Source: an uncultured Planctomycetales bacterium (GTDB lineage: Bacteria > Omnitrophota > Gorgyraeia > Zapsychrales > Fredricksoniimonadaceae). From it: DNA of 64,000 nucleotides. The notes beneath the pieces were generated by a model. The model made no database searches and was not told the DNA's origin. It saw only the letters and a list, made by a program, of their open reading frames with translations. Each line of letters starts with the position of its first letter. Position 1 is the first letter of the stretch. The DNA is taken from positions 99,552 through 163,551 of the forward strand of contig CAZOXU010000001.1 of assembly GCA_964583975.1 (NCBI GenBank), read 5' to 3'. Both the position numbers and the translations under genes were made by a program. Shown one piece after another: positions 10,899 through 42,344 of this stretch.

Positions 10899-11909
10899 TC
10901 AAAGATTACGCGTATTTCCAATAAAACGATCTGCATCACTAAAGCCTAAATGCGATGCAGGCCTTACCATTTCAGCGCAACGGTTAAAAATTTTTGCTAG
11001 TAAAGAACGCCCCCATAAGCCTGGCATACCCCACGAAGAAGCTTCTTTACGAATAAGCCCGCTTAACTGTTGAAATTGCGAAACTTCCAACCATCCTTTG
11101 GCATTGGCTTGGTCCAAAAGGTCGATGGCATAATCAGGTAAACGATAAACCATGGATATTGTTGCAGCTTTAATGATCTTAGCCGTACGCACAGCTTGGT
11201 CTTTTTGTTTTAAGGCATTTAACAGACTATCAATCTTACGAAAATACAAAGCATCACCAAAAACCAATTGTCCACTACCAATATAGCCAGTATATTTCTT
11301 TCTCTTCCACCAAGACCGACGCAAATTCATCAATTGAAAACCTTTTTCATCCATAAAAGCATCAACATCACGAAATAAAGCTTGGCCCTTATATAACGGG
11401 GCAAATTCAACCTCTAGTTCCACCCCACAAAGCAAATCTAAATTTGCTTTTGCACCTTTTAAGATATCCAATTCACTGCCTTGGGTATCAATTTTGATAA
11501 AATCAACCTCTTTAATACCGGCTGTAGCTAGGGCCTCATCCAAAGATTTGACTTTTTCTCGGCTAAATTCAATCTCTTGTATGGTTTCATACCTTTGATC
11601 ATCGGGAAAATCCTTTAATAAAGCCATATTGGGTGGATAAATAGAAGATTTACCCTGATCACGAGAGATATAAAAACGTAAATCTTGGCTAGAATGATAA
11701 AGGGCGTAGGGTAAATAAGTTATATGAGCGTCAGATTTTAATTTAATGAATTCTCGTTCATCCGGTTCAAAGGCAATCACATGGCAATGATTCAACAATT
11801 GCTTCCAATATAAAGAAATGCCGCCCATCGCTCCGACATCAATGTAATGCAGCACAATCTTCGAGTCACAAAACTCATCAAAAAAGTTCTTAAAAGTGGA
11901 TTTTCCCAT
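10899..11909 (-). CDS. FkbM-family methyltransferase
   Basis: 'IDVGAMGG' and 'FIKIDTQGSELDIL' (FkbM domain). Confidence 0.7.
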   Translation of the reverse strand: MGKSTFKNFFDEFCDSKIVLHYIDVGAMGGISLYWKQLLNHCHVIAFEPDEREFIKLKSDAHITYLPYALYHSSQDLRFYISRDQGKSSIYPPNMALLKDFPDDQRYETIQEIEFSREKVKSLDEALATAGIKEVDFIKIDTQGSELDILKGAKANLDLLCGVELEVEFAPLYKGQALFRDVDAFMDEKGFQLMNLRRSWWKRKKYTGYIGSGQLVFGDALYFRKIDSLLNALKQKDQAVRTAKIIKAATISMVYRLPDYAIDLLDQANAKGWLEVSQFQQLSGLIRKEASSWGMPGLWGRSLLAKIFNRCAEMVRPASHLGFSDADRFIGNTRNL

Positions 11910-12652
11910 TATAAAACAATCTTTCCATTGGTCACCGTTAGATTGATAGAGTATGGAATATCAGTTTTCTCTAACGTAAAAGATCCCCCGGCAGCTATTA
12001 ATATGGGTAATGCACCTGCAATATCCCACAACATAATACCTTTTTCACAATACACTTCTGCTCTAGCACAGCTAACATAACTTAAAGATAAAGCCGCAGA
12101 GCCGAGCCAGCGTAATTTTTGATAGGCTTGAACATCTTTCTTAAATTGTTCGAAGAACGCGGTTGAATAGTTGGTATTCAATGCAAAACCTGTGAGCAAC
12201 ATCGCTCTATCTTTATGGGTAACATCACTAACCTTAATGGGAGCGTCATTAAGCCATGCGCCTTTGCCTACTAGGCCTGAGAATAATTCTTCGTTTCTAG
12301 GTGAATACACAGCTCCTAAAACCGGTTGATCTTCCTCCCATAAACCAATAGAAACACCATACATCGGAATTCCACGATAATAATTAATAGTGCCATCCAA
12401 AGGATCAACAATCCAACGAAGACCATCGGATTTACCTGAGATCAAACCTTCCTCTTCAGATAAAATAGGATAATTAGTCTGTTTTAATTTTTCTAAAATG
12501 AATGATTCAGACATTTTGTCGGCTTTTAATTTAAGATCATGATGCTGCCACTGGTCAATTTTCTTAAAATCTTTTGGAGCATTAGCTAAAAGAGTCCCTG
12601 CTTCTCGTACTGTATTTTTAACTAGTTCTAAAAGGCTTTGCAAATCTGCCAT
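11909..12652 (-). CDS. Inositol-monophosphatase family phosphatase, candidate 3'(2'),5'-bisphosphate nucleotidase (CysQ-like)
   Basis: IMPase motifs 'LSEEEG', 'WIVDPLDGTINY' and 'WDIAGALPILIAAGG'. Its context with ATP sulfurylase, APS kinase and a sulfotransferase suggests removal of the sulfotransferase by-product PAP. Confidence 0.75.
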   Translation of the reverse strand: MADLQSLLELVKNTVREAGTLLANAPKDFKKIDQWQHHDLKLKADKMSESFILEKLKQTNYPILSEEEGLISGKSDGLRWIVDPLDGTINYYRGIPMYGVSIGLWEEDQPVLGAVYSPRNEELFSGLVGKGAWLNDAPIKVSDVTHKDRAMLLTGFALNTNYSTAFFEQFKKDVQAYQKLRWLGSAALSLSYVSCARAEVYCEKGIMLWDIAGALPILIAAGGSFTLEKTDIPYSINLTVTNGKIVL

Positions 12653-17012: not shown

Positions 17013-17860
17013 TATTTACCCCTCGCCCAAATTTGATTCCTAGTTTGATCGTTTTGACTCCACGTTAATTTAAAACCATAGGATTTTAACAAATCTGCAC
17101 ACAATTGGCTGTTCTTAGGATCTGGCGGCATTTCTAAAACCAGACTTCTTAACCTAGGGTCCTGTAATATCTTTTTAGCACCTGTTAAAACCTTCATTTC
17201 ATTACCATCGGTATCGATCTTTAAAGCATTGGGGACTACATTCAATTGTTCACAGGCCCTATCTAAAGTAATAACGCTGATTCCTTCTCGAAAAACAACT
17301 GAAAATCCTTCTTCGGTCTTAGTAATTTTTGTCTTACTTTCGGTATGAGCTGCAGCTCCCACAGCAGTATCTTGCATGTTTAGAAAACTTAAACCTTCAA
17401 AATCTCCAACAGCCACACTATTGATGGTCACCTTATTAGCCAAGCCGTTTAAAAACACATTATCTTTAAGGTGATTCAAATTCGAATACTCTGGCTCAAA
17501 ACTATATACAGAAACATTGGAATGTTTCTTTGCACAATAGACTGAGAAAATTCCAACGTTAGCACCAATATCAAAGAAAACATCGCCTTCTTTAACGAAT
17601 TCATCGATGTAATAACATATTTCTGACTCTTTTTTACCAAATAAATACCAACGAAAATGGGTGATCCAATTCACGCAAGAAAGTGTAAAACTAACGTTAT
17701 TAGCCCTCACTGTTCTTCGTGGTACTAAACATTTTGCTAAAAACCAGCCTAAGGCAATATGAGGATAGCGCCAATCACCATAGGAATGGATTAAAAATTG
17801 TCCAAGGGGTGTTCTTTTTAAATACTGCTTAAATTGGAGGGATGAATTATTTGAGCTCAT
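17012..17860 (-). CDS. FkbM-family methyltransferase
   Basis: 'FFDIGANVGIFSV' and 'LKIDTDGNEMKVLTGAKK'. Confidence 0.7.
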   Translation of the reverse strand: MSSNNSSLQFKQYLKRTPLGQFLIHSYGDWRYPHIALGWFLAKCLVPRRTVRANNVSFTLSCVNWITHFRWYLFGKKESEICYYIDEFVKEGDVFFDIGANVGIFSVYCAKKHSNVSVYSFEPEYSNLNHLKDNVFLNGLANKVTINSVAVGDFEGLSFLNMQDTAVGAAAHTESKTKITKTEEGFSVVFREGISVITLDRACEQLNVVPNALKIDTDGNEMKVLTGAKKILQDPRLRSLVLEMPPDPKNSQLCADLLKSYGFKLTWSQNDQTRNQIWARGK

Positions 17861-18618
17861 TTCTTAATTAACTTTAATCCCTCTCTACATTGATCTCCTA
17901 ATAAAAGAAAATCAACACTGTAAGCGATAAACCTAAAGCCTTTTTTAATTTTATCTTTAACCATACGAGTGTCTGTTGGGACACAATGAATACCTGCAGT
18001 TACACCCTTTTCCTTGGCTTTCAACATAATCCTCTTTAAAGCTGCGATTAATTTGGGGTTTTCAAACTCGCCGGCAATTCCCATCGATCCAGAAAGATCA
18101 TAAAGTCCAACTAGAAAGCCATCAATTCCTTGCACAGCAAAAATTTTATCGAGATTTTCCACAGCTTCGATATGTTCGATTTGAACAATAACGACGCTTT
18201 CGTTCTTGACCCATCGTTTATATTCATTAAATGTAGTGCCATACCCTTGAGCTCGTGAAAGGCCGATGCCTCTAGTTCCTTCTGGCGGATATTTAACAGC
18301 GTTAACAGCTTTTTGAGCTTCCTGAGCCGTGTTCACCATGGGAACGATGACCCCCGTGGCCCCCGCATCCATCACTCTTTTAATTAAGGTAGGATTATTA
18401 TCCCCGACTCGTACCAAAGCTGGGATACCACATAAATCAATGGTTTGAATAAGTTTCATGGCATGCTGGACGGTTAAAGCAGAGTGTTCCATATCCACCG
18501 CCAACCAATCAAAACCTGCTTTAGCCATAATTTCAGCAATGCAAGTATCGGTCATGGTAATCCATGATCCAATGGTCAGTTGATTTTTCTTAAGTTTTTG
18601 TTTGAGTGAAGCTTTCAT
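17857..18618 (-). CDS. HpcH/HpaI-family class II (pyruvate-dependent) aldolase
   Basis: 'LTIGSWITMTDTCIAEIMAKAGFDWLAVDMEHSA' is a typical HpaI/RhmA-type TIM-barrel start. It contains 'VRV' and 'IEHIEAVEN'. Confidence 0.75.
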   Translation of the reverse strand: MKASLKQKLKKNQLTIGSWITMTDTCIAEIMAKAGFDWLAVDMEHSALTVQHAMKLIQTIDLCGIPALVRVGDNNPTLIKRVMDAGATGVIVPMVNTAQEAQKAVNAVKYPPEGTRGIGLSRAQGYGTTFNEYKRWVKNESVVIVQIEHIEAVENLDKIFAVQGIDGFLVGLYDLSGSMGIAGEFENPKLIAALKRIMLKAKEKGVTAGIHCVPTDTRMVKDKIKKGFRFIAYSVDFLLLGDQCREGLKLIKK

Positions 18619-23212: not shown

Positions 23213-24325
23213 TTATATTAATTTAAAACTTTTCAACTGATACTCTCTGGAAAATCTTTTCTTAATACTGCCATTCGCAGGACCATAAGGAAGAATTAAA
23301 TGGACGGAAGAATCAAGTAGCGCCGGATTGATGACCGGTTTGCCTCTAAATCGTCTCGACTCATTCTTACTCTTCATATTTTCATCTACAAAGAATTCAA
23401 TTCGATTACCTAACACACTCTCTACAAACGCTGCAGTTGTTGTTGTTCCTAAAACACATGTCTTTGGCTGCGAAATTGTAAGCAATTGTCGTTTCACTCG
23501 GTCTAAATATTTCATGGTCCTATAAATGCTTGTATCTTTTTTGATCTGACTGGTCTTATTTGAAGATGTCGCTTGGGCTATGGCAACGATATCTCTAGGG
23601 AAATGCTCATTGGGCAATAAAACCATATCAAAACCAGCCTTATGAAGAACGTTCCTTAAAATAGACGGCGTAAAATAATAATACTGATCAGCCAAAAGGA
23701 TCGAACAAGGATTGTTAGTGACATCCGGCAACTGGATAAAGAGTTTGCCTTCTTTTTTTAACAATCGTCGAACATTCACCAATAGTCCTTGGATGTCCTT
23801 GATATAGATCATCGACAGGGACATACAAATCAAGTCAAACTCACCTTTAATCTTTGAAAGATCGGCTAAATGAAAAACAAAATTCTTTTTCGAAGGAAAA
23901 CATTTTTTTAAATGTCGATTAACATCAAAGCCATGAAATTCAGCTTTAGGAAAACGGCCATTTAACTCTAGTAACAATTCCCCCTTAAAGCATCCAATGT
24001 CTAATACCTTGGTCTCCTTGCTATTACGTAAAAACCCCTTTAGTAGTTCTCCTTGTAAAAAAAATCGTGTTACACGTCGATTAGGTTTCAATAAAAATGT
24101 CTGATTAGTGATCGGCGCCTTAGCATAGTCTAAACTTTCATAAATCTGAGCCTGCTTTTTCTCATCCGCCTCACTCATGATATTAATGAGCAACTGACAA
24201 TCCTTACACCGACCTATCATTCCACTTTTTCTATAATCTACAAAACCTAGATGTCTAAACAAAGTATACGGAAGTTTAATCAATTCTATTTTTGATCCCT
24301 GACAAAACGCGCACCTTTTACTCAA
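23213..24325 (-). CDS. SAM methyltransferase with N-terminal Zn-ribbon (TylCIII/NDP-hexose C-methyltransferase-like architecture)
   Basis: 'CAFCQGS...CKDCQLL' Cys pairs, followed by 'VLDIGCFKGELLLEL'. Confidence 0.6.
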   Translation of the reverse strand: MSKRCAFCQGSKIELIKLPYTLFRHLGFVDYRKSGMIGRCKDCQLLINIMSEADEKKQAQIYESLDYAKAPITNQTFLLKPNRRVTRFFLQGELLKGFLRNSKETKVLDIGCFKGELLLELNGRFPKAEFHGFDVNRHLKKCFPSKKNFVFHLADLSKIKGEFDLICMSLSMIYIKDIQGLLVNVRRLLKKEGKLFIQLPDVTNNPCSILLADQYYYFTPSILRNVLHKAGFDMVLLPNEHFPRDIVAIAQATSSNKTSQIKKDTSIYRTMKYLDRVKRQLLTISQPKTCVLGTTTTAAFVESVLGNRIEFFVDENMKSKNESRRFRGKPVINPALLDSSVHLILPYGPANGSIKKRFSREYQLKSFKLI

Positions 24326-25898
24326 GTTGACTTAAAACCTCCCCTATAGGTAATAAAGCTGCATGTTTTCTTAAGAAACTTCGTCCGATTCTGCTATTGA
24401 CCGTAACTTTTTCATCAGCATAAGCCTTTCCTACTTCAGCCATGGCTGCCTTGAACCTCTCTTGCAAGATTTCATCTTCATCCACATATTTTAAAGTGCC
24501 CTTGCACTTATCTAACATTTCTTCCACCACTGCTTTTATTTCTTCAGCTGAATTTCTTATAACTTCTAATCCCATGGTGTCATAGGTGTACTGTTCGCAA
24601 GCAGCTCCCACAGGTGGACTCACCAATTCTTCAAAGTTTAAATATCTTTTTTCTAGCGAATGCCAACAGAGCCCGGGTAAGAATAAATCCTTCGCTGATA
24701 AACAATAGATAGCATGTGCAGGTAAAAGATTTGTTACAACTGCCGGAACGCCAAAAGCAACTGATACCATAAAATAACCAGAAGAAGTACCAACCACAAA
24801 ACGACATTGTGACGACAAAAAGACATCCATCCAATCACTTTTGAGATTGCTGTGAGCATAATCAATCACATGCGACATTTTCTTTAACGGTTTCATCGAA
24901 GGATCACCCATACGAATCACCCATCCTCCCGCAGACACAATCGATTCAATAGCAGGAATATAGGTATCGATATCCGCATTACGGTAATCTTCTACAAGAG
25001 ATTTTTCATGCCATCCTGCTTCTCGGACATGAAAACATACAAACCATGCAGTCTCAGGAACTCCCAATAATTTTAAATTCTGCCAGCCACGATTAAAGTC
25101 TTCTTGGGTTAACGTCAATAAAGGAGGTCGGTTTTCTTTATCCCATTGCTCCTGCACAATCCCAATGGCCGTATGACTAACAATGACTTCATCGCGCAAT
25201 TTCATAGCGTAATTAAAAGGATAGTCCAAAGCTTTTTCCAAAGGTTCCAAGGTCTCAATAGTTTGCGGATCAGTAATAACGGTGATGTATTTACTCCAAT
25301 AATTGAGGTAGCATCGATTATTGATCTTGGTATTAGGAGGCAAAAGCAAAATCATTTTCTTTAAAGGACGCCAACCAAGGAGTGCTGCCATCACATAGGT
25401 GCTAAGCGTTTCGTAAAGACCAATAGAACCACTTACAAGGATTCGTGGCACAAATTCAACGTTTAAGTTATCTAATTGATGAGATTTCAAAAGATAAAAT
25501 CTTGTTCTTTCAAAATCTTTAAAAACGACTCTATGCTTCTGGTATTCTCCGCTAAAAAAATATAATACCGCAAGACCTACATTAGCAGCTGCCCAAGAAG
25601 ACATATTTTCTAAATCTGGTGTTCTAGCAACTGTCTTTCTTAATATCTCTTCTGCTTTTCTTTGCGCCCTAACCAAGGATTCGCCCTCAACCCTCTGGGT
25701 ACGCAGTTTTCGGTAATCTTTTAATAACTTCACAGAAAGAAAATCGTATGCCTGAGGCCAATTAAGATTCCACTGTACAGCCAAACCTGCAAAAAGATTT
25801 AAAAGGAGCTTGTTTTTCCCATTAGAAATCTTTTGACTGAAAGCTCTCCAACCTCCCTTTTTGATCTGAAAAAATTGACGTTTAAGAAAAACAAACAT
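24318..25898 (-). CDS. Conserved protein of unknown function, paralog of 32520..33776 (TIGR04372-like putative glycosyltransferase)
   Basis: Shares the blocks 'VIDYAHSNLKSDWMDVFLSSQCRFVVGTSSG' and 'GLEVIRNSAEEIKAVVEEM' with 32520..33776. Confidence 0.45.
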   Translation of the reverse strand: MFVFLKRQFFQIKKGGWRAFSQKISNGKNKLLLNLFAGLAVQWNLNWPQAYDFLSVKLLKDYRKLRTQRVEGESLVRAQRKAEEILRKTVARTPDLENMSSWAAANVGLAVLYFFSGEYQKHRVVFKDFERTRFYLLKSHQLDNLNVEFVPRILVSGSIGLYETLSTYVMAALLGWRPLKKMILLLPPNTKINNRCYLNYWSKYITVITDPQTIETLEPLEKALDYPFNYAMKLRDEVIVSHTAIGIVQEQWDKENRPPLLTLTQEDFNRGWQNLKLLGVPETAWFVCFHVREAGWHEKSLVEDYRNADIDTYIPAIESIVSAGGWVIRMGDPSMKPLKKMSHVIDYAHSNLKSDWMDVFLSSQCRFVVGTSSGYFMVSVAFGVPAVVTNLLPAHAIYCLSAKDLFLPGLCWHSLEKRYLNFEELVSPPVGAACEQYTYDTMGLEVIRNSAEEIKAVVEEMLDKCKGTLKYVDEDEILQERFKAAMAEVGKAYADEKVTVNSRIGRSFLRKHAALLPIGEVLSQLE

Positions 25899-25899
25899 G

Positions 25900-27252
25900 T
25901 TATGAACTCACTTTTTGGATTAAAACATCTTTACTAGACGCTCTTGTAGTATCTGTGGACCAGTTAAACTTTGTTAACATTTCTTGAGGAATCATCCGCG
26001 TGGCTCGATCGATCTGAGCCGCAGTAAAATCCTTCTTCCATTCATCGACCCCTCCTGAACGCATACGTGTATTCTTTTTAAATTCAGGTGATTTGGGGTA
26101 AGTAAATTTTGATTCCTCAATGTCATAAAATTTAAGGATCTTTTGAAATAGTTCTTTAGGTTGAGCTACCAATTCTTCTTGAGTAACAAATAATATCTCC
26201 GGTTCAAATGTTGGATCTTTTTGTGCATCCATCCATGATTGAATCCATTTGATCGAGGCAGGTAAATAAAAATGATCAATTTGCCAAGAAATCTGATCTT
26301 CCAGAGACATAAGGAAATACCCATCAGGAATGTGTGATTCTAAAAGGCCTTCGATATTATTAATCGATCTCATATACGTGTTGATATAGTGCACGTAGGA
26401 AATCAACCCTTGGCGAGGATCACGAACATTGACAATCATACGATCTACGCACAAATTAAGAATAGCTAAATTAGAAGGTGCCCCTGAGGTATGATCCACT
26501 GAAAGCATATCTTCAATGGGTGCGGTGCTTAATGCATAATTAGGAAGCGGAACTGTAATGTCTGGATACCACCACCAGGTCGCAGGTGTAACCTGACCAA
26601 TATCTTCAGCTAATTTTAAACCTTCTTTGAGCGATGTCTGGATATAACCTGAAGCTGAACGATGCTGAGAAGCCACAAAAATAGGGCCAACCCCTCCCTG
26701 TGCACGACGCTGGAATATTCTTAACTTGGTGGCTTTATGAAAATAATGATTTGCTTCATTACGGTTTCCTTGGGCCATGAGAACCGCATTGCCTCTAATA
26801 AAATTGGCTTGCACAGAATCTGGAAATATTTCCACCATTTTCTTTGTACACGCCAGATGTTTCTCTACTGATGCCTGATCCAGAATTAAATTTCTATGAT
26901 CATGCATTCTATTACCTTTGCTATCTGTCCTTTTCTCTTGTCCATTATAGCGAACCAACATTTCTAATTTTAAATGAGCCTCTAGCAGATTCGGATCAAG
27001 AGCAATGGCCTTTTCACAGTGCTTAATTGCTTGGGCCAATTGATCCAATTTATAACAAACTTCCGCCATCTCCATCTGCGCCATGGCAGAGCCAGGGTGA
27101 GCTGCTATTTTCTTAGTCAATACGAATTTCTTTAAGCGATAAAGTAACTTTACGCACTTGCGACTCCAAGGAAGGAACTCTTTCCTGATGAATCGGATCA
27201 AGTCAGAAGGCAAATGTTTTAATAACCATAATCGCAAACTACGCTTCTTCAT
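25900..27252 (-). CDS. TPR-repeat / PAPS-dependent sulfotransferase fusion
   Basis: N-terminal TPR-like helices ('AIALDPNLLEAHLKLEM'). C-terminal sulfotransferase motifs: a 3'-PB-like 'VNVRDPRQGLISYVHY' and a terminal 'RMRSGGVDEWKKDFT' (cf. RKGxxGxWKxxFT). Confidence 0.65.
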   Translation of the reverse strand: MKKRSLRLWLLKHLPSDLIRFIRKEFLPWSRKCVKLLYRLKKFVLTKKIAAHPGSAMAQMEMAEVCYKLDQLAQAIKHCEKAIALDPNLLEAHLKLEMLVRYNGQEKRTDSKGNRMHDHRNLILDQASVEKHLACTKKMVEIFPDSVQANFIRGNAVLMAQGNRNEANHYFHKATKLRIFQRRAQGGVGPIFVASQHRSASGYIQTSLKEGLKLAEDIGQVTPATWWWYPDITVPLPNYALSTAPIEDMLSVDHTSGAPSNLAILNLCVDRMIVNVRDPRQGLISYVHYINTYMRSINNIEGLLESHIPDGYFLMSLEDQISWQIDHFYLPASIKWIQSWMDAQKDPTFEPEILFVTQEELVAQPKELFQKILKFYDIEESKFTYPKSPEFKKNTRMRSGGVDEWKKDFTAAQIDRATRMIPQEMLTKFNWSTDTTRASSKDVLIQKVSS

Positions 27253-27269: not shown

Positions 27270-29483
27270 TTATTCTTGGAATATTTCCTTGCCCGCATCA
27301 ATTTGGTTGATGATCAATTCTGATAAATCTTTACGCATAAACCATTCCGGAGGCAGATTTTTATCCATCAACATCTTTCGTCCTTGCGTTCCACTGATGG
27401 AAAGAATATCTTCTTGTTTATGGTCGCATGTCTCTACGTAACTTTCGCATTTGCGGCAATAATTGATTTCATTAAAGAAAATTGGTTCAATTCCAATATC
27501 TCCCAAGCTTTCAAATAATTGACGAACGCTATCTTTCTGATAGTACCCCTCGATCCCAGAATGATCGCGTCCCACCACAAAATGGCTGCAGCCATAATTC
27601 TTACGGCAAATCGCTGTAAATACTGCTTCTCTAGGGCCCGCATAGCGAGGGTAATTTAGCCAGGCTGCAAGCAAAACTTTATGAGCCGGATAATATTTGC
27701 TAATAATAATTTCATAGCTTTTTAGAATGATTTCAGAGAGATAATCGCCCTTCTTCTTTGGTCCAGACAAAGGGTGAATGAAAATGCCATCACAATGGTA
27801 TTTCTCGATGGCTGTCTTCTGGATGTGTTCGTGAACCCGGTGGGCTACATTGCGTGTATGAAAACCAATAATTCTCGACCAACCTTTATGCTCAAATATT
27901 TTTCGGACCTGCCTAGGCGTCATTTCAAACTGTTTGTTTTGAGAAGGCAGCCTTTTAATTAAAGTAATCTCTCCACCCAAAAAATGATTAGGTCGTTTTA
28001 AAATATCTTCAACACCAGGATGTTTAGAATCATTCGTACCAAATAACTGGCTGGTCAATTGTTGCAAATCATAGGTATATATATCTTTAATATCCAAGAT
28101 GGCATATACCAATCCATCATTCTTAAAACACAGAGCAACTTTCTGGCCAATACTTAATTGCTCAGCATTTTTCTGATCAATTTGTAAAACTATGGGCATG
28201 GGCCAGATGACACCCGTAGGAAGTTTAAAATCCTTCAATACCCCATCTAACTCTTCCTTGCTCATAAAGCCTTTAAGCGGAGAAAATGCTCCAATGGCAA
28301 TCTGCTCGGCATTAATCAAATCTTTTTCTTCGACTACAATCTTCTTGTATGCATTAATTAGCTCTAAATCAGGACTATCTTCATAGCGATGAATTAACTC
28401 TCCACCGTGAGGCTTAATCAAAAAAGAATGGTCGTCACTATCTAAATTCTCTAGAAAACCATTGGGTCCCTGACAATACTCATGGAATTGTTGCATCACA
28501 CGTGAAACCATGCTGGCGCATTCTACCGGATAGGAACCAATTGCTGTTTCCGCAGCCAAAACCAAACCATCGGCACCATCTACCAAGGTATTAAAAATAT
28601 CATTAACTTCAGCTCGAGTTGGATTAGACATAGTGATCATGGATTCCAATAAATTGGTAGCTACAAACATTTCCACATTAGCTTGCTTTGCTCTTCTAAT
28701 TATTTCTTTTTGCACCCTAGGGATTTGTTCGATCGGTACCTGCCTGGACATGTCTCCTCGATCCAACAAAAGGGCATGGCTACGACCTGCAATGGCTTCT
28801 AAATTCTTAATACCCATCAGTGATTCAATTTTAGAAATAATATAGGTCTGAGGAGCAACGTGCTTCTTTAGCTCATCGATATCTTCAGCTTTATTAGCAA
28901 AGGACAATGCCACATGTTTAATTCCCATCTTTTTGCCAATAGCAAATGCCTGGATATCTTTTTCTGTTAATGCAGGCAGGTCAATTTCACGATCTACACT
29001 GACAGCTTTATTACGTCCAATAAAGCCGCCGGTCAAAACCTTAATCACCAAACCATTTTGGTCCTTAGCAATCACCTTGACCAAAACAGAATTAAAATCA
29101 ATGCTGACAATGTCTCCGACTTCTATTTTGTCAACGCAATCTAAAGGATACAAATTAAATGAACTACCGCTTCCCTCAACTGCTTGTCTTGGTATTTTGA
29201 TGATTTGATTTTCTTCCAACAGGATTTTAATATCAAGGAAGTCTCCTGTTCTAATCTGTGCGCCTTCGCTGTCTAAACACACAGGGACCTTGGTCCTGGA
29301 CTGAATAAACTTAATCACTTCTGGAAGATCTTTAATCTTAGTATGCGAAAGATTGATCCGAAAAAGACTGACCCCCACATCAGTTAATCGCGCAATGACA
29401 CGATCATTCATTGATGCAGGACCTAAAGTGCATAATATTTTTTTCGGCACACTCATATTGAAGATATTCTTTCCTTTAAGCAC
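27270..29483 (-). CDS. Pyruvate kinase catalytic domain fused to ATP sulfurylase (sulfate adenylyltransferase)
   Basis: PK N-terminal part: 'KILCTLGPAS', 'RINLSHT', 'IISKIES', 'LLDRGDM', 'ATNLLESMITMSNPTRAEVNDIFN'. ATP sulfurylase C-terminal part: 'LIKPHGGELI', 'GFHTRNVAHRVHE', 'VVGRDHSGIEGYY'. Confidence 0.8.
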   Translation of the reverse strand: MLKGKNIFNMSVPKKILCTLGPASMNDRVIARLTDVGVSLFRINLSHTKIKDLPEVIKFIQSRTKVPVCLDSEGAQIRTGDFLDIKILLEENQIIKIPRQAVEGSGSSFNLYPLDCVDKIEVGDIVSIDFNSVLVKVIAKDQNGLVIKVLTGGFIGRNKAVSVDREIDLPALTEKDIQAFAIGKKMGIKHVALSFANKAEDIDELKKHVAPQTYIISKIESLMGIKNLEAIAGRSHALLLDRGDMSRQVPIEQIPRVQKEIIRRAKQANVEMFVATNLLESMITMSNPTRAEVNDIFNTLVDGADGLVLAAETAIGSYPVECASMVSRVMQQFHEYCQGPNGFLENLDSDDHSFLIKPHGGELIHRYEDSPDLELINAYKKIVVEEKDLINAEQIAIGAFSPLKGFMSKEELDGVLKDFKLPTGVIWPMPIVLQIDQKNAEQLSIGQKVALCFKNDGLVYAILDIKDIYTYDLQQLTSQLFGTNDSKHPGVEDILKRPNHFLGGEITLIKRLPSQNKQFEMTPRQVRKIFEHKGWSRIIGFHTRNVAHRVHEHIQKTAIEKYHCDGIFIHPLSGPKKKGDYLSEIILKSYEIIISKYYPAHKVLLAAWLNYPRYAGPREAVFTAICRKNYGCSHFVVGRDHSGIEGYYQKDSVRQLFESLGDIGIEPIFFNEINYCRKCESYVETCDHKQEDILSISGTQGRKMLMDKNLPPEWFMRKDLSELIINQIDAGKEIFQE

Positions 29484-31053
29484 CCGTAAAGTGATCTGTT
29501 GCTAAATGTCCTGTTGCTCGATTAATCAAAAACCAATTGCCATTAAAATTCGTGGTGGGATGCTCGAACCAGACAACCGCAGCCTCATTCATCGAATCTC
29601 CAATCTTTTTGATCAAATCATCACCATGAATCGTAGAAATACCATCAGGAATATTCAAAGGATAATTGTTAAACACATGCTCAGTTCCCTTATCCGTAAA
29701 AATTCGTAAATTAATGGTCTTATCTGGATTTGTTCGAGCTCCACCTGCAGTCGCTAAGGCATAAATACTTCGAAATTCCTTAAATAAAGGCGCCATTTTT
29801 AAACAGCGATAAGATTTAGGTAGGCCACAGGAATCATTATGGTAGCCAAAAGAATATTGGGTATGAACCTGATCAGCAAAGCTCTCTCCCCGGCGATAAT
29901 ATAAATGCAGATAACATGGAGGTTTTTGTTCAAACTCATTTTGATCGCGCTGAAAATCGACCACAAAATAAACACCGCCTTTGATCTGTTTTCCCTCAAA
30001 GACCTTAGCCAAATCAAAACCCAGCTCTTCATCACTTAATGTAACAAATTTCTCTCCTAACAATTCACCAGACTCTCGATACCCCTTGATCAAGAAGGAT
30101 CGGGTTTGAAAACCAATTTCTTCTTCATTCACATTAATCAGTGGAGCATTAAGTTCAAAATCTGGTACATAAAAAGCAGTGACACAAGATTGTACGGTTT
30201 TCTCCTTTGATGGAATATGTCGAATGTTCTTCATATGGCCTGAACAGTTATCATGCCAAAGAGTTGTTGGATCGCCACTCTCATCATGCACGATACAAAA
30301 ACCCATTGATCCTTTAATAGGCCCTTGGCTTTGGGCTCTTCTAAAAGCACCCTTGGCCCCCTCAGTCTGAAGAACTTGGTAGGGATCAGCAAAGTTACAA
30401 TAATAGGCTAGCTGCTGCCCTGGAATAAATGCACGGTAGCAAAATTCATCACGTTTGACATAAGGCTTCAAAAGAACAGGTATCGAATGAATACCCGAAA
30501 TCGTACCTTTGGCCGTATTGTTGAGAAACATAAAAAAACGAAATTCATTACCTGGGGTTTTAAGCCGAGGATGAAAGGCTTCTAACATCACAATTCCCTG
30601 CTTTGGTAAGGCGTTCTGGTCAGCCTCCTGGGTAAAGTTCTTAAGATATTTAACTTCATTAGGGGCCAAAAGATATTGTTTAGACCAAAAACACTGCTCA
30701 CCTACCAAGATAGACAAACGAATGAGGATAGGATCACGAAGGCCATAGTTACGTTGCAAAAAGTTAAAAATCAAAATATCTGTCATGCCTCTATGATAGG
30801 GAACATGAACCGAGGCTCGAGGAACCGAAACATCCGGAACAATTTGTTCAGGCGTCTTCTTACCATAATAAATATTAAATAACTCAGGCAATATTTTGGA
30901 GGCGGCAACGCTCTTGGCTGCAGAGTGTTCTTTTAAATAATATTGCTCGGTAAGGGTTGGATTATACCCAGGGCAGGCCTTGAAAAACTTGACCGCTAAC
31001 TTCTCAGCATTGCTCTTTCCTATAATCCTTGAAACCATTTCGAATTTTTGCAT
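29476..31053 (-). CDS. Hypothetical protein (525 aa), no recognisable motif
   Basis: Long uninterrupted ORF, co-directional, with an 8-nt overlap with the upstream gene. Cys/His-rich and probably soluble. Confidence 0.5.
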   Translation of the reverse strand: MQKFEMVSRIIGKSNAEKLAVKFFKACPGYNPTLTEQYYLKEHSAAKSVAASKILPELFNIYYGKKTPEQIVPDVSVPRASVHVPYHRGMTDILIFNFLQRNYGLRDPILIRLSILVGEQCFWSKQYLLAPNEVKYLKNFTQEADQNALPKQGIVMLEAFHPRLKTPGNEFRFFMFLNNTAKGTISGIHSIPVLLKPYVKRDEFCYRAFIPGQQLAYYCNFADPYQVLQTEGAKGAFRRAQSQGPIKGSMGFCIVHDESGDPTTLWHDNCSGHMKNIRHIPSKEKTVQSCVTAFYVPDFELNAPLINVNEEEIGFQTRSFLIKGYRESGELLGEKFVTLSDEELGFDLAKVFEGKQIKGGVYFVVDFQRDQNEFEQKPPCYLHLYYRRGESFADQVHTQYSFGYHNDSCGLPKSYRCLKMAPLFKEFRSIYALATAGGARTNPDKTINLRIFTDKGTEHVFNNYPLNIPDGISTIHGDDLIKKIGDSMNEAAVVWFEHPTTNFNGNWFLINRATGHLATDHFTGA

Positions 31054-32519: not shown

Positions 32520-33776
32520 CTACACTTGATTTATAGACGAATTAAAGGCATTTTTCGATTCATTTAAATCTTGTAAATATTGATATTTTTCCAAAAACAA
32601 TGCCCCTATTCTGGAATAATTATGCGGGCCGTGCACACCATTTGTAAAAGGGAAATCTCCCCAGAATTGCGACTGTAACTCTTCTTGTTCTTCGGTAGTT
32701 TTCCATTGACCCTTTAAACGTTCTTCCATTTCTAAGACTACATCACGAATCTCTTCAGGAGAGTTTTTGATCACCTCTAATCCTTGATCTTCAAACATCT
32801 TGGTCTGTACACCATATCTGATATTTTCATTTAACATTTCTTTAAAACTCAAAAGTCTGCCATCTTTCTTGTTTCTCAAAAGTTTGAGAATGCTTAAGAA
32901 TTGATCTGACCAGGTAAAGAGAAAACCAACGGGAATAACATTGATATAAACAACCGGTTTTCGGAAAAGTCTGGCCACAGCTTCAATACCGCCCTCTCCG
33001 ACAAAGAAATGACACTTGGAAATTAAATAGATATCAGCAAAATCACTTCTAAAAGAGCTGTTGGCATAATCAATGACTTGCGGATGAACCAACGGAAACT
33101 TCTCTTCAACAACTCGCCCCATACGAATGATGTAATAACCTCGAGCTATCAACTCTTGAGCTGCCAATACAAAATCTGCAACAGGAAAATTACGATAATG
33201 ATGATAGCTCCAATCTCGGCCAGGGCTATGCTGACTTAAATACAAGCCATCGCGTCCTTGAATACAAACAAACGGCGTTCCTTTGGGAATGCCCATGCAA
33301 CGCAATAAGGTCTCACCCTGCTCTTGTTCGGAAGGAGTAAAAGTAACCTGAGGTGGAGTTTTATACGTTAAAGAAAAAATATCCCTGCTCTGAAAGGTGC
33401 GCCACTTATGAAGATGTGCTTTTCCACCAGGAACTTTTATATTGATTCGAAAAACCCAATAGGCCAAATTTGATACAGGTAAAACTCGACTCCATAACTT
33501 CACCATCTGCTTATTGACCTTGTTGGGACGATTAGGAAAGAAAATATTGATGGCTTGTGGCTGATGCATACCCATTTTTCTTTCTAAAACATAGGTATCT
33601 AACTCTCCAGCTGCATGTCCAATGCGATCTTTGATAGGAATAAGCCGCACCAAAACAAATGGACGGAGAATTCGCATCAACACAACACAAGGCAAGGCTA
33701 AAAACAAGACTGGAATTTTAGGCACTACGACTGATACTAACCATTGAAATGAATATTTAGGTGGAACACTCGACAC
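32520..33776 (-). CDS. Conserved protein of unknown function, paralog of 24318..25898 (TIGR04372-like putative glycosyltransferase)
   Basis: 'VIDYANSSFRSDFADIYLISKCHFFVGEGG' and 'GLEVIKNSPEEIRDVVLEM' are shared with 24318..25898. It lies immediately downstream of an FkbM methyltransferase. Confidence 0.45.
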   Translation of the reverse strand: MSSVPPKYSFQWLVSVVVPKIPVLFLALPCVVLMRILRPFVLVRLIPIKDRIGHAAGELDTYVLERKMGMHQPQAINIFFPNRPNKVNKQMVKLWSRVLPVSNLAYWVFRINIKVPGGKAHLHKWRTFQSRDIFSLTYKTPPQVTFTPSEQEQGETLLRCMGIPKGTPFVCIQGRDGLYLSQHSPGRDWSYHHYRNFPVADFVLAAQELIARGYYIIRMGRVVEEKFPLVHPQVIDYANSSFRSDFADIYLISKCHFFVGEGGIEAVARLFRKPVVYINVIPVGFLFTWSDQFLSILKLLRNKKDGRLLSFKEMLNENIRYGVQTKMFEDQGLEVIKNSPEEIRDVVLEMEERLKGQWKTTEEQEELQSQFWGDFPFTNGVHGPHNYSRIGALFLEKYQYLQDLNESKNAFNSSINQV

Positions 33777-40851: not shown

Positions 40852-41379
40852 TTACTGACTCCTTTTGATGGTTTTAATAAAATTTAAAAAATTGGCTAAA
40901 GAATCTGCCTCGGATTTAACACCCGTCTCAATGATCAAATCTGGATTCTCTGGCGGTTCATACGGGTTTTCTGTATCGACCCCAATAAAATTTCGAATTT
41001 CTCCAGCTAAAGCTTTTTTATACAGTCCTTTTACATCTCTTTGGATGACTTGCTCTAAAGTTGCCTTCACATAGATTTCTGCATATTGTCCTGCGAAGGT
41101 CTCTCTTAATTCCCTACGTATCTGACAATAAGGAGTAATCACAGAAACAAATATATAATCAAACTCCGCTAAACGTTTTCGACAAAGATCAGCAATAAAC
41201 CTGTTATTTTGAAGGATATCTTCTCTAGTGAAACCTAAGGCTCGTGGATATTGCGAGCGGATCTCATCTCCATCTAATAACAGAACCTTCTTTCCTTCAC
41301 CCTCCAAAACCTCTTTGGCCTTTCTTGCGATGGTTGTCTTGCCCGCTCCTGAAAGACCTGTAAACCAGAAAATTCTCAT
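40852..41379 (-). CDS. cysC: Adenylylsulfate (APS) kinase
   Basis: 'IFWFTGLSGAGKTTIA' P-loop and 175 aa length typical of CysC. Confidence 0.85.
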   Translation of the reverse strand: MRIFWFTGLSGAGKTTIARKAKEVLEGEGKKVLLLDGDEIRSQYPRALGFTREDILQNNRFIADLCRKRLAEFDYIFVSVITPYCQIRRELRETFAGQYAEIYVKATLEQVIQRDVKGLYKKALAGEIRNFIGVDTENPYEPPENPDLIIETGVKSEADSLANFLNFIKTIKRSQ

Positions 41380-41381
41380 AT

Positions 41382-42344
41382 TTAAACAAGCTCTTGAATA
41401 CTCGCACTTCGATTAACTTTTAAATCTTTTAATTCTTTGACGGTACTTATCAAATGTTCGGTCGAAATTTGAAAACCTTTCATCAAACTTGACTGTGAAC
41501 CATACTTCTCAGCAAAAACATCAGGAATACCAATACGTTTGAAACGTTTAACGGTTGAGAAATTAGCTTCGGTAATAACTTCAGCAATAGCACTACCCAG
41601 TCCACCAATAATCGAATGTTCTTCAATCGTCACAATCACTGGCACGCGTGCAGCATATTTGGTAATTGTCTCGACATCCAAAGGTTTAATCGTAGGCACA
41701 TGCAATAATGCACACTTCAATCCTTGATCACTTAATTGATCAGCAGCTTCCAATCCGTTTTTAAGCGTAATGCCGGTTGTCATAATCAAAGCATCGGAGC
41801 CTTCACGCATAGCTAAAGCTCGTCCTATTTTAAAAGGAACTGTATCATTTGTAACAATAGGATCTCCGCCCTTAGCAACGCGAATATACATAGGTCCTGG
41901 ATAATCCACTGATTGCAGCATCGCGCGGCGCATCTCATCTGCATCAGCAGGTGCAATTACGGTCATATGAGGGATCGTACGCATGATCGCAATATCTTCA
42001 ATCGCTTGATGCGTTGGACCTAACGGAGCGTAAACCAATCCTCCACCATTACCAATTAAACGAACATTGAGATTATGTAATCCTAGATCGACCACTACTT
42101 GTTCAAAACAACGACGCGTTAAGAACGTAGCAATGGTATTAACGTAAGGGATCTTTCCATCCATGGCAAAACCAGCAGCCATCCCGATCATATTAGCTTC
42201 ACTGATTCCTTCCATAAAAAAACGGTCAGGCATTTCTTCTTTAAATTTCTGTAAGGTCCCGACTCCTAAGTCAGAACCGATAAAGAAAATTCGCTTATCC
42301 TTACGCGCCAGTTCATGGACCATCTCAAGACACAATTTACGCAT
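41382..42344 (-). CDS. Transketolase, C-terminal (pyrimidine-binding) subunit
   Basis: Split-transketolase C-half: 'FFIGSDLG', 'GMAAGFAMDGKIPYVNTIATF'. Confidence 0.85.
   Translation of the reverse strand: MRKLCLEMVHELARKDKRIFFIGSDLGVGTLQKFKEEMPDRFFMEGISEANMIGMAAGFAMDGKIPYVNTIATFLTRRCFEQVVVDLGLHNLNVRLIGNGGGLVYAPLGPTHQAIEDIAIMRTIPHMTVIAPADADEMRRAMLQSVDYPGPMYIRVAKGGDPIVTNDTVPFKIGRALAMREGSDALIMTTGITLKNGLEAADQLSDQGLKCALLHVPTIKPLDVETITKYAARVPVIVTIEEHSIIGGLGSAIAEVITEANFSTVKRFKRIGIPDVFAEKYGSQSSLMKGFQISTEHLISTVKELKDLKVNRSASIQELV

What the first reader, a model, noticed from the sequence alone, without database searches (positions are those of the whole stretch)
27270..29483. Pyruvate kinase catalytic domain fused in-frame to a full ATP sulfurylase
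One 737-aa ORF carries a complete PK A/B-domain and a complete ATP sulfurylase. In the PK part the catalytic Arg, Lys, Glu, Asp and Thr positions look intact ('RINLSHT', 'SKIES', 'DRGDM', 'ATNLLESM...PTRAEVND'), but it lacks the PK C-terminal allosteric domain. The ATP sulfurylase part has the PUA-like 'PHGG' N-domain and the 'HTRN..H..HE' and 'GRDHSG' motifs. I am not aware of this architecture being described. ATP sulfurylase is thermodynamically unfavourable and is usually pulled by CysN GTPase, pyrophosphatase or an APS-kinase fusion. A fused PEP-driven ATP regenerator would channel PEP energy into PAPS, with the stand-alone CysC at 40852 recycling ADP. That would be a new coupling strategy.
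Basis: partly seen in the sequence, partly recalled or inferred. Interest (0 to 1): 0.85.

Follow-up and report, generated by a model that had tools for sequence, protein, structure and literature searches.

The report
Pyruvate kinase fused to ATP sulfurylase
This is a real, widely conserved bacterial enzyme that joins a stripped-down pyruvate kinase to the sulfate-activating enzyme ATP sulfurylase, most likely so that phosphoenolpyruvate can help power production of the sulfate donor PAPS for sugar sulfation. It is common in genomes, but I found no paper describing or testing it.

Summary
The ORF at 27270-29483 (minus strand, likely start ATG 29456) encodes a pyruvate kinase (PK) A/B barrel without the C-terminal allosteric domain, a disordered linker, and a complete PUA + ATP sulfurylase (ATPS).

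It is not a frameshift artefact. All 120 best database clusters share the architecture. A scan of species genomes confirmed 511 relatives (80 examined, all full-length) across more than 12 phyla, including cultured Mesorhizobium, Sinorhizobium and Methyloversatilis.

Catalytic residues of both halves are near-invariant. Both halves also carry clade-specific changes. PK has DTKGPE>D(T/S)EGAQ, GDLGVE>GDLSRQ, ATQ>ATN and LSGE>LAAE. ATPS has the sulfate-contacting Gln of QxRN replaced by His.

The gene sits in PAPS/sulfation cassettes. An APS kinase or a sulfotransferase lies within 6 kb in 65 of 80 loci. The same PK clade also occurs fused to ATPS+APS kinase in both orders, to APS kinase alone, and stand-alone.

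Best reading: a dedicated, unregulated PK removes the ADP made by APS kinase and regenerates ATP. It cannot pull the sulfurylase step directly.

I found no paper describing it. Databases name only one half. I rate it a new variant of a known kind, biochemically untested.

The parts
27270..29456 (-). PK-ATP sulfurylase fusion gene. The CDS probably starts at ATG 29456 (728 aa). The mechanical ORF begins at GTG 29483 (737 aa). The stop codon is at 27270-27272.
   Evidence: (P0001 is 100% identical and 728 aa)
28518..29441 (-). Pyruvate kinase A/B barrel (aa 15-322), with no C-terminal allosteric domain. Catalytic R42, K218, E220, D244 and T276 are present. Clade-specific motifs are DSEGAQIR, DRGDMSRQ, ATNLLESM and LAAETAIG.
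   Evidence: PF00224, E 1.4e-63; alignment to PykF and family conservation; Foldseek match to M. tuberculosis, E. coli and PKM2 PKs, ~332-350 aligned columns
28419..28517 (-). Poorly conserved inter-domain linker (aa 323-355).
   Evidence: mean top-residue frequency 0.50; 3% of columns >= 95% conserved; pLDDT < 50 for residues 340-358
27951..28418 (-). PUA-like N-domain of ATP sulfurylase (aa 356-511), including the PHGG motif.
   Evidence: PF14306, E 1.8e-41
27309..27932 (-). ATP sulfurylase catalytic and C-terminal domains (aa 518-725). Contains HTRN (His in place of the Gln of QxRN), H548xxH551, GPREA, GRDHSG, and the Zn motif C676-x2-C679-x6-C686-x-H688.
   Evidence: (TM 0.88 to 8a8d)
25900..27252 (-). 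TPR + sulfotransferase gene immediately downstream (17-nt gap). This is the likely PAPS consumer.
   Evidence: PF00685 37.2 bits > 22; TPR_2 37.1 > 27
40852..41379 (-). Stand-alone APS kinase (CysC) in the same co-directional cluster, 11.4 kb upstream in the direction of transcription.
   Evidence: PF01583, E 4.2e-42; TIGR00455 157.7 > 138.7
11909..12652 (-). Inositol-monophosphatase-family protein, a candidate CysQ-like PAP phosphatase. The assignment is tentative.
   Evidence: PF00459, E 7.7e-50; CysQ equivalog 90.7 bits, below its 228.8 cut-off, and not the top-scoring model

Best explanation
The gene encodes a bifunctional enzyme: a PK barrel lacking the allosteric domain, tethered by a flexible linker to a Sat-type ATP sulfurylase. 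It is part of a dedicated PAPS-supply cassette (fusion + APS kinase + sulfotransferase, possibly + PAP phosphatase) inside a very large glycan-tailoring cluster.

Proposed mechanism:
1. The ATPS half makes APS + PPi from ATP and sulfate.
2. APS kinase converts APS + ATP to PAPS + ADP.
3. The PK half uses PEP to rephosphorylate that ADP to ATP.

Keeping local ADP low prevents the dead-end APS-kinase-ADP-APS complex and adds the free energy of PEP to the second step. That holds APS low and so drains the unfavourable sulfurylase equilibrium. Loss of the C-domain would free this PK from the sugar-phosphate/AMP control of housekeeping PKs.

Shown here: domain content, residue conservation, recurrence, gene neighbourhood and alternative fusions. 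Inferred: PK activity with ADP and PEP, the direction of coupling, and lack of allosteric regulation.
For: Domains and curated cut-offs.

Conservation. Catalytic residues of both halves are present in 116-120 of 120 members. Conservation across the PK barrel (mean top-residue frequency 0.67; 27% of columns >= 95% conserved) is comparable to that across the ATPS domain (0.73; 31%). That indicates selection on both halves.

Recurrence. The 120 best clusters are all PK+PUA_2+ATPS. 511 relatives were confirmed in species genomes, and the top 80 are all full-length.

Neighbourhood.
- APS kinase lies immediately downstream in 34 of 76 loci.
- APS kinase or sulfotransferase lies within 6 kb in 65 of 80 loci, and in 42 of 51 loci with full flanks.
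- Examples: Anaerolineales, Omnitrophota, S. saheli and Methyloversatilis, the last with a sulfate-binding protein upstream.

Fusion evidence. The same PK clade is fused as APSK-PK-PUA-ATPS, as PK-PUA-ATPS-APSK, and as PK-APSK without any sulfurylase. APS kinase is the only ADP-forming step of the pathway.

Published in vitro precedent. PAPSS1 made almost no PAPS without PK/PEP regeneration. The authors attribute this to the dead-end enzyme-ADP-APS complex (PMC9885120).

Substitution tolerance. K114Q and E117K rabbit PK mutants remain active, and a crenarchaeal PK branch has non-Glu/non-Lys residues at position 117 (Gln among those listed); its characterised members, which carry Ser, Arg or Val there, are active and K+-independent (PMC8835810, PMC4374775).
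Against: - No member has been assayed.
- Twelve positions differ from PykF and are invariant or nearly so across the clade: G38T, K68E, P70A, E71Q, G157A, A243D, G248S, V249R, Q279N, S312A, G313A and K317I in PykF numbering. I could not map them onto ligand contacts with these tools, so the phosphoryl acceptor or cation requirement may differ from canonical PK.
- AlphaFold gives no confident packing of the two halves (pTM 0.56), so physical channelling is not supported.
- In this window CysC lies 11.4 kb away rather than adjacent.
- In 15 of 80 loci I detected neither APS kinase nor sulfotransferase. My sulfotransferase detection is insensitive and many of those contigs are short.
- I could not check whether host genomes also carry a housekeeping PK.
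Confidence: 0.6

Rival explanations
1. The PK-like half is catalytic but has shifted specificity. It would use PEP, or another phosphoenol donor, on an acceptor other than ADP. Candidates are another nucleotide of the sulfation cycle such as AMP or PAP, or another NDP. It might also have a different cation requirement. On this reading the fusion does more than simple ADP-to-ATP regeneration.
For: - Clade-invariant substitutions lie in loops that canonical PKs keep constant: DTKGPE>D(T/S)EGAQ, NKG>NKA, ARGDLGVE>DRGDLSR(Q/E), ATQ>ATN, LSGE(S/T)AKG>LAAETAIG.
- These motifs are found in fusions and in stand-alone clade members, but not in the canonical ~470-aa PKs of the same search.
- The K+-site signature matches neither published class.
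- The ATPS half has its own invariant change at a sulfate-contacting residue.
Against: - All residues that bind the PEP phosphate and carboxylate, Mg2+, and the nucleotide beta/gamma-phosphates are retained.
- Fusion to APS kinase alone is most simply explained by ADP recycling.
- PKs are naturally promiscuous for NDPs (my own knowledge).
- Mutations at rabbit positions 113, 114 and 117 leave activity largely intact.
Confidence: 0.2
2. The PK half is mainly a regulatory or scaffolding module. It could be a PEP/ADP sensor or an oligomerisation domain controlling the sulfurylase. The precedent would be the catalytically dead APS-kinase-like allosteric domain of fungal ATP sulfurylases.
For: - ATPS enzymes are known to acquire non-catalytic fused domains (my own knowledge of the Penicillium enzyme, PDB 1i2d/1m8p, both listed).
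- The clade also occurs fused to a CBS domain (P0139).
- It also occurs fused to decayed ATPS remnants (P0147, P0159). This shows that domains in this family can lose catalysis.
Against: - In the decayed forms, the ATPS part has lost its motifs while the PK motifs are fully retained.
- Metal ligands, the catalytic Lys and the Thr are conserved in 119-120 of 120 members. That is not expected of a pure sensor.
- Stand-alone PK-only members exist in glycan and sulfation contexts.
Confidence: 0.1
3. The fusion is an assembly, frameshift or gene-calling artefact joining two adjacent genes.
For: None beyond the prior that unusual fusions in a single sequence can be artefacts.
Against: The same uninterrupted architecture, of the same length (~720-735 aa), is seen in at least 120 independent 90%-identity clusters. 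It is also seen in 80 of the 80 best species genomes, including complete chromosomes and RefSeq isolates.
Confidence: 0.01
4. The sulfurylase works in the ATP-forming direction (APS + PPi -> ATP + sulfate), as in sulfur oxidisers. The PK would then simply be a second substrate-level ATP source in an energy-conserving module.
For: Sat-type enzymes are reversible, and some are tuned to ATP synthesis (PMC3779200).
Against: - No APS reductase, Dsr or Sox genes are nearby.
- The neighbours are APS kinase, sulfotransferases, glycosyltransferases and sugar-nucleotide enzymes.
- The closest solved relative is the assimilatory M. thermolithotrophicus enzyme.
Confidence: 0.03

Closest known systems
Bifunctional PAPS synthases (ATP sulfurylase-APS kinase fusions, e.g. 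Aquifex 2gks, human PAPSS1/2)
   Same: The same Sat-type sulfurylase fold and motifs. The same logic of fusing the unfavourable first step to an enzyme that helps consume its product. Some relatives of this protein also carry the APS kinase domain (P0088, P0214, P0230, P0247).
   Different: The partner here is a pyruvate kinase barrel, which acts on neither APS nor PPi. APS kinase is a separate gene in this window (40852-41379).
ATP sulfurylase-inorganic pyrophosphatase fusions of stramenopiles and haptophytes, and the ATPS-APR fusion of Heterocapsa (PMC2275785)
   Same: A fused helper enzyme that shifts the unfavourable ATPS equilibrium.
   Different: Those helpers remove a direct ATPS product (PPi or APS). 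PK removes ADP, the product of the next enzyme, and regenerates the substrate ATP. PK is not among the ATPS fusion partners named in that survey.
CysDN, the GTPase-coupled heterodimeric ATP sulfurylase
   Same: An extra high-energy phosphate compound is spent to drive sulfate activation.
   Different: CysD is an unrelated fold. In CysDN the coupling is mechanistic, within one complex. Here the energy input is PEP, through a separate active site.
Canonical pyruvate kinase (E. coli PykF 1pky, M. tuberculosis 5wrp, rabbit M1)
   Same: The A/B barrel fold and all core catalytic residues. E-values are about 1e-50 to solved PKs.
   Different: There is no C-terminal allosteric or tetramerisation domain. 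The K+-loop signature is non-canonical: (T/S)113, E114, Q117, T120. Clade-specific motifs are DRGDxSR, ATN and LAAETAIG. NCBIfam PK equivalog scores are below their cut-offs.
Engineered PK/PEP ATP-regeneration modules used for enzymatic PAPS synthesis (PMC9885120)
   Same: The same three activities: ATPS, APS kinase and PK with PEP. The stated rationale is the same: remove ADP to relieve the dead-end APS-kinase complex.
   Different: That is an in vitro mixture of unrelated commercial enzymes. Here the combination is genetically hard-wired and evolutionarily conserved.
Fungal ATP sulfurylase with a C-terminal APS-kinase-like allosteric domain (Penicillium 1i2d/1m8p)
   Same: A Sat-type ATPS carrying an additional kinase-derived domain.
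   Different: The fungal extra domain is catalytically dead and binds PAPS (my own knowledge). The PK domain here keeps all its catalytic residues.

Membership tests
Pyruvate kinase (EC 2.7.1.40) | PK (beta/alpha)8 barrel with inserted B (lid) domain (PF00224) | tested here: met
   PF00224 E 1.4e-63, profile 5-327/328. Foldseek hits to PK structures (E ~1e-34) aligning ~332 columns.
Pyruvate kinase (EC 2.7.1.40) | Catalytic and ligand-binding residues (PykF R32, N34, S36, D66, R73, K156, K220, E222, D246, T278, E314) | tested here: met
   all are present in the query (R42, N44, S46, D71, R78, K159, K218, E220, D244, T276, E312) and in 116-120 of 120 family members.
Pyruvate kinase (EC 2.7.1.40) | C-terminal alpha/beta allosteric and tetramerisation domain (PK_C) | tested here: not met
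   no PK_C hit; the PK equivalog models match only positions ~3-340 of 476 and score below their cut-offs (264 vs 306).
Pyruvate kinase (EC 2.7.1.40) | One of the two published monovalent-cation signatures (T113/K114/E117/T120 or L113/Q114/K117/hydrophobic-120, rabbit numbering) | tested here: not met
   the family has (T/S), E, Q, T at these positions. The signatures are taken from PMC8835810 and PMC4374775.
Pyruvate kinase (EC 2.7.1.40) | PEP + ADP -> pyruvate + ATP activity | not testable with these tools
   Needs an enzyme assay.
Homo-oligomeric (Sat-type) ATP sulfurylase | PUA-like domain plus ATP-sulfurylase catalytic domain, scoring above the curated family cut-offs | tested here: met
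   (PF14306, PF01747). (NF003166 409.1 > 387; TIGR00339 338.5 > 322.95). (TM 0.88 to 8a8d).
Homo-oligomeric (Sat-type) ATP sulfurylase | HxxH motif, GRD loop, GPREA and GxxKxxD mobile loop | tested here: met
   H548/H551, G638-R-D-H-S-G, G616-P-R-E-A and G574-P-K-K-K-G-D are all >= 95% conserved in the family.
Homo-oligomeric (Sat-type) ATP sulfurylase | QxRN (RNP) loop with the Gln that hydrogen-bonds the sulfate of APS | tested here: not met
   R and N are kept, but Gln is replaced by His in 119 of 120 clusters and in at least 82 of 84 genome loci. The role of the Gln, and its description as strictly conserved, come from PMC3779200.
Homo-oligomeric (Sat-type) ATP sulfurylase | Cys3His zinc site in domain III (Thermus / A. 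vinosum type) | tested here: met
   C676, C679, C686 and H688 are nearly invariant. The motif is mentioned in PMC3779200.
PAPS synthase (ATPS + APS kinase in one chain) | APS kinase domain (PF01583) in the same polypeptide | tested here: not met
   there is none in the window protein, and CysC is a separate gene. The feature is met in relatives P0088, P0214, P0230 and P0247.
ATPS-pyrophosphatase fusion | Inorganic pyrophosphatase domain | tested here: not met
   no such domain. No pyrophosphatase family hit among the ORFs of at least 150 aa scanned across the window.

The most novel reading that the evidence does not exclude
The C-domain-less PK clade may not be a plain ADP-to-ATP regenerator. 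It may be a re-tooled phosphotransferase whose remodelled nucleotide and cation loops adapt it to a sulfation-cycle nucleotide. Examples would be re-phosphorylating AMP- or PAP-derived species, or acting in a tight complex with APS kinase. Together with the His-for-Gln sulfurylase, this would form a PAPS synthase that runs stoichiometrically on PEP with only catalytic amounts of adenine nucleotide.
Probability: 0.15. Interest if true: 0.85.

Novelty: new variant of a known kind. Interest (0 to 1): 0.6.

Why it matters
Sulfate activation is one of the most thermodynamically unfavourable steps in central metabolism. The known ways of driving it are GTP hydrolysis (CysDN), pyrophosphatase, and APS-consuming partner enzymes.

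A conserved, phylogenetically widespread family that hard-wires pyruvate kinase to the PAPS pathway would add PEP as a fourth driving force. It would be a natural counterpart of the PK/PEP regeneration trick that biocatalysis groups add by hand to make PAPS.

It also defines a PK subfamily without the allosteric domain, and I found no paper describing it. Its occurrence marks bacterial sulfated-glycan clusters in Omnitrophota, Planctomycetota, Nitrospinota, rhizobia and others.

Practically, such enzymes could be compact modules for cell-free or in-cell PAPS supply. For annotation, current database names describe only half the protein.

Tried and rejected
- Frameshift/artefact explanation: rejected by recurrence.
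- Looking up the exact window protein to identify the source organism: not on record. The cluster look-up gave no name. The best species-genome hit is only 60% identical (a Planctomycetales MAG), so the organism remains unidentified.
- PLSDB annotation of the Ensifer and Sinorhizobium replicons: no features are listed there.
- Nine literature searches (eight term combinations aimed at a PK-sulfurylase, PK-APS-kinase or PK-sulfotransferase link, plus one for sulfoenolpyruvate). They found only coupled-assay mentions and no description of the fusion.
- A search for a paper listing PK nucleotide-contact residues: no hit. I therefore did not assign the clade-specific substitutions to specific ligand contacts.
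- The sulfoenolpyruvate / sulfuryl-transfer idea for the PK half (recalled from memory): nothing supports it, so it was dropped.
- AlphaFold monomer to see whether the active sites face each other: the inter-domain geometry is not confidently predicted.
- AFDB fold search for UniProt naming: the library was unavailable.
- First crude neighbour counts were flawed by stop-to-stop ORF overlaps. They were redone with domain coordinates.
- CysQ assignment of 11909-12652: only family-level support, below the equivalog cut-offs, so it is kept as tentative.
Full report
**1. The observation**

The ORF reported at 27270-29483 on the minus strand exists and is 737 aa from a GTG. The upstream gene stops at 29476. 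An AGGA motif precedes an ATG at 29456, and a 100%-identical database protein (P0001) is 728 aa. The true start is therefore most likely 29456. Seventeen bases after the stop codon a TPR-sulfotransferase gene begins.

Pfam finds three domains:
- PK barrel, aa 15-322 (E 1.4e-63, covering 5-327 of the 328 profile positions)
- PUA_2, aa 356-511 (E 1.8e-41)
- ATP-sulfurylase, aa 518-725 (E 3e-73)

There is no PK C-terminal domain. NCBIfam sulfate adenylyltransferase models pass their curated cut-offs. All PK models stay below theirs because only the first ~340 of ~476 positions are matched.

No solved structure covers both halves, by sequence or by fold (best TM normalised to the query is 0.47). 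Each half matches its own family well. The closest ATPS is the assimilatory enzyme of Methanothermococcus thermolithotrophicus, 8a8d (E 1e-94; TM 0.88).

**2. Not an artefact, and not rare**

The 120 best 90%-identity clusters in the 5.8-billion-protein collection all have the same three Pfam domains. They are 51-82% identical and nearly all ~720-735 aa long.

The best 80 all span the whole protein at 47-60% identity. They come from:
- Planctomycetota, Elusimicrobiota, Omnitrophota, Nitrospinota, Deltaproteobacteria, Bdellovibrionales
- Chloroflexota (Anaerolineae, Caldilineaceae, Dehalococcoidia), Actinomycetota (Acidimicrobiia), Gemmatimonadota, Verrucomicrobiota, Calditrichota
- Alpha-, Beta- and Gammaproteobacteria
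- Cultured isolates: several Mesorhizobium species, Sinorhizobium saheli, Ensifer sp. BR816, Pseudaminobacter soli, and Methyloversatilis universalis FAM5

Two more copies lie on large Ensifer and Sinorhizobium replicons. Sources name these proteins 'sulfate adenylyltransferase' (NCBI) or 'pyruvate kinase' / 'ATP sulfurylase' (JGI), i.e. by one half only.

**3. Active sites**

*PK half.* Aligned to E. coli PykF, the query keeps the following residues, each in 116-120 of 120 family members:

| Query | PykF |
|---|---|
| R42 | R32 |
| N44 | N34 |
| S46 | S36 |
| H47 | H37 |
| D71 | D66 |
| R78 | R73 |
| K159 | K156 |
| K218 | K220 |
| E220 | E222 |
| D244 | D246 |
| T276 | T278 |
| E312 | E314 |

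The family also departs from canonical PK in motifs that ordinary PKs keep constant, and these departures are themselves invariant or nearly so:
- DTKGPEIR > D(T/S)EGAQIR
- HG > HT
- NKG > NKA
- ARGDLGVE > DRGDLSR(Q/E)
- ATQML > ATNLL
- LSGE(S/T)AKG > LAAETAIG

The cation-loop signature, (T/S)113 / E114 / Q117 / T120 in rabbit numbering, fits neither published class (PMC8835810, PMC4374775). Against reading too much into this:
- K114Q and E117K mutants remain active.
- A crenarchaeal PK branch has non-Glu/non-Lys residues at position 117, Gln among those listed. Its characterised members, which carry Ser, Arg or Val there, are active and K+-independent.

So the pattern is a conserved, remodelled, probably active site rather than a decayed one. 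Conservation across the PK barrel (mean top-residue frequency 0.67) is comparable to that of the ATPS domain (0.73), whereas the linker is poorly conserved (0.50).

*ATPS half.* HxxH, GxxKxxD, GPREA, GRDHxG and the Cys3His zinc motif are conserved. The Gln of the QxRN loop is His in 119 of 120 clusters and in at least 82 of 84 genome loci.

**4. Context**

The whole 64-kb window is one co-directional run of about 58 genes for glycan synthesis and tailoring. It contains:
- heptose-pathway genes, three DegT aminotransferases, about ten methyltransferases, split transketolase subunits
- an HpcH aldolase, a B12-radical-SAM enzyme, a KdsB-like cytidylyltransferase, a NeuB/PseI-like synthase
- glycosyltransferases (two of the TIGR04372 type flank the fusion), a Wzy-like protein and an ABC exporter

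Within this run lie four genes of the sulfation pathway:
- the fusion
- the adjacent TPR-sulfotransferase
- a bona fide APS kinase at 40852-41379
- an inositol-monophosphatase-family protein at 11909-12652 that could be the PAP phosphatase (family-level support only)

Elsewhere the linkage is tighter:
- Anaerolineales: fusion, then APS kinase, then sulfotransferase
- Omnitrophota: sulfotransferase, then fusion, then APS kinase
- S. saheli: fusion, then APS kinase
- Methyloversatilis: sulfate-binding protein and sigma-54 activator, then fusion, then sulfotransferase

Over the 80 species loci:
- APS kinase is immediately downstream in 34 of the 76 loci with enough flank.
- An APS kinase and/or sulfotransferase lies within 6 kb in 65 of 80 loci, and in 42 of 51 loci with full flanks.

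My sulfotransferase detection relies on iterated phmmer from five seeds, so it undercounts.

**5. Other fusions of the same PK clade**

An exhaustive search with the PK half alone against 1.84 billion representatives, followed by domain scans, shows the clade occurs in seven forms:
- (i) PK-PUA-ATPS, the majority form
- (ii) PK-PUA-ATPS-APSK (P0214, P0230, P0247)
- (iii) APSK-PK-PUA-ATPS (P0088)
- (iv) PK-APSK with no sulfurylase (P0152, P0250), found in a polysaccharide cluster
- (v) PK plus a decayed sulfurylase remnant that has lost HxRN/HxxH while every PK motif is retained (P0147, P0159). P0147 is directly followed by a sulfotransferase gene.
- (vi) PK-CBS (P0139)
- (vii) stand-alone ~325-355-aa barrel-only PKs beside a sulfatase-family gene or a Wzt-type ABC ATPase

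Most of forms (i)-(vii) carry the clade motifs D(T/S)EGAQ, DRGDxSR, ATN and LAAETAIG. The more divergent triple fusions and P0250 keep only some of them. Canonical ~470-aa PKs appear only at the bottom of the hit list and carry the canonical motifs instead.

The PK is thus the constant element, and its partners are the enzymes of PAPS synthesis. APS kinase is the only ADP-forming enzyme of that pathway.

**6. Mechanism**

ATP sulfurylase releases PPi, not ADP, so PK cannot pull that reaction directly.

The best-supported model is indirect coupling:
1. APS kinase turns APS + ATP into PAPS + ADP.
2. The tethered PK converts that ADP back to ATP using PEP.

This has two effects. It prevents the dead-end enzyme-ADP-APS complex, and it adds the PEP-to-ATP free-energy drop (about -30 kJ/mol, from my own knowledge) to the step that removes APS. 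That in turn drains the unfavourable sulfurylase equilibrium.

There is direct in vitro precedent. Human PAPSS1 produced almost no PAPS without a PK/PEP regeneration module, for exactly this reason (PMC9885120).

Loss of the C-domain would uncouple this PK from the sugar-phosphate/AMP regulation of housekeeping PKs. This is an inference from established PK biology.

The AlphaFold model folds each half well (mean pLDDT 83). It gives pTM 0.56 and a disordered linker at residues 340-358, so there is no evidence for facing active sites or a channel. Proximity and stoichiometric co-expression are the most that can be claimed.

My confidence in this model is about 0.6. The alternatives are:
- PK half with altered acceptor or cation specificity, suggested by the invariant substitutions: about 0.2
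- A mainly regulatory or scaffold role: about 0.1
- Reverse (ATP-forming) operation: about 0.03
- Artefact: about 0.01

**7. Comparison and novelty**

Known fusion partners of Sat-type ATPS are APS kinase, inorganic pyrophosphatase and APS reductase (PMC2275785). Fungal enzymes also carry an APS-kinase-like allosteric domain.

PK is not among the partners named in that survey. None of the eight literature searches aimed at a link between PK and the sulfate-activation enzymes found a description of a PK-sulfurylase or PK-APS-kinase protein (among them). The library lacks most subscription-journal papers, so 'undescribed' is provisional.

The protein passes membership tests for Sat-type ATPS, except for the Gln of QxRN. 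It passes the tests for the PK catalytic core, but fails the PK tests for the C-domain and the cation-loop signature.

I therefore class it as a new variant of a known kind: known enzymes and a known principle (fuse a helper to ATPS) with a new helper and a new energy source. It is not categorically new, and it is not unique to this genome.

Interest is 0.6. A specialist in sulfur metabolism or sulfation biocatalysis would find it notable, and it is directly testable. The mechanism is unproven and the chemistry is probably conventional.

Noticed in passing
window 1-64000 (all on the minus strand): The entire window is a single co-directional block of about 58 ORFs (>= 150 aa) with persistent negative GC skew. 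It carries no tRNA or Rfam hit. It is an unusually large glycan biosynthesis and tailoring cluster, with heptose genes, three DegT aminotransferases, about ten methyltransferases, a NeuB/PseI-like synthase, KdsB-like CMP-transferase, a Wzy-like protein and an ABC exporter.
   Followed up: partly
window 29476-31053, 57585-59630, 59645-61642, 1918-3057, 44200-44841: Several ORFs inside the cluster (213-681 aa) have no Pfam or NCBIfam hit. The largest are 525, 665 and 681 aa. One of them (29476-31053) lies directly upstream of the fusion and overlaps its mechanical start.
   Followed up: no
window 24318-25898 and 32520-33776: Two paralogous TIGR04372-family glycosyltransferases (E ~1e-67 each) bracket the block made up of the sulfotransferase, the fusion, the unknown ORF, a methyltransferase and a WbuC cupin.
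   Followed up: no
window 41382-43174 and 17857-18618: Split transketolase-like subunits (N and pyrimidine/C) and an HpcH/HpaI aldolase are in the same cluster. These enzymes typically use pyruvate or ketose donors to build branched or extended sugars. Pyruvate is the PK by-product, but I did not test any link.
   Followed up: no
window 11909-12652: An inositol-monophosphatase-family protein (PF00459, E 8e-50). It could be the PAP phosphatase of the sulfation cycle, but it scores below the CysQ equivalog cut-offs, and other family models score higher.
   Followed up: partly
P0261 (1051 aa; one search hit, domains): A distant hit with two tandem PK barrels followed by an adenylate kinase domain. 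It looks like another natural fusion of ATP-regenerating enzymes. It carries canonical PK motifs, not the clade motifs.
   Followed up: no
P0147 / L087 7001-8584; P0159: PK barrel with all clade motifs, fused to a ~190-aa remnant of the sulfurylase catalytic domain. The remnant has lost HxRN and HxxH. In L087 the next gene is a Sulfotransfer_3 protein.
   Followed up: partly
P0152 / L088 2248-3765; P0250: PK barrel fused directly to an APS kinase, with no sulfurylase. In L088 it sits between a Polysacc_synt flippase and CDP-alcohol phosphatidyltransferase-like and GT2 genes. No sulfotransferase is seen on the 8-kb contig.
   Followed up: partly
L021, L023, L026, L033, L052, L072, L076, L079, L084 (proteobacterial members): In these members the HTRN loop is HGRN (Thr replaced by Gly). 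This is a second lineage-specific change in the phosphosulfate-binding loop.
   Followed up: no
window 62961-63980: An ORF resembling only the C-terminal half of NodU-type carbamoyltransferases (E 5e-39, model positions 287-537 of 556). A full carbamoyltransferase also neighbours the fusion in the Anaerolineales locus L001.
   Followed up: no
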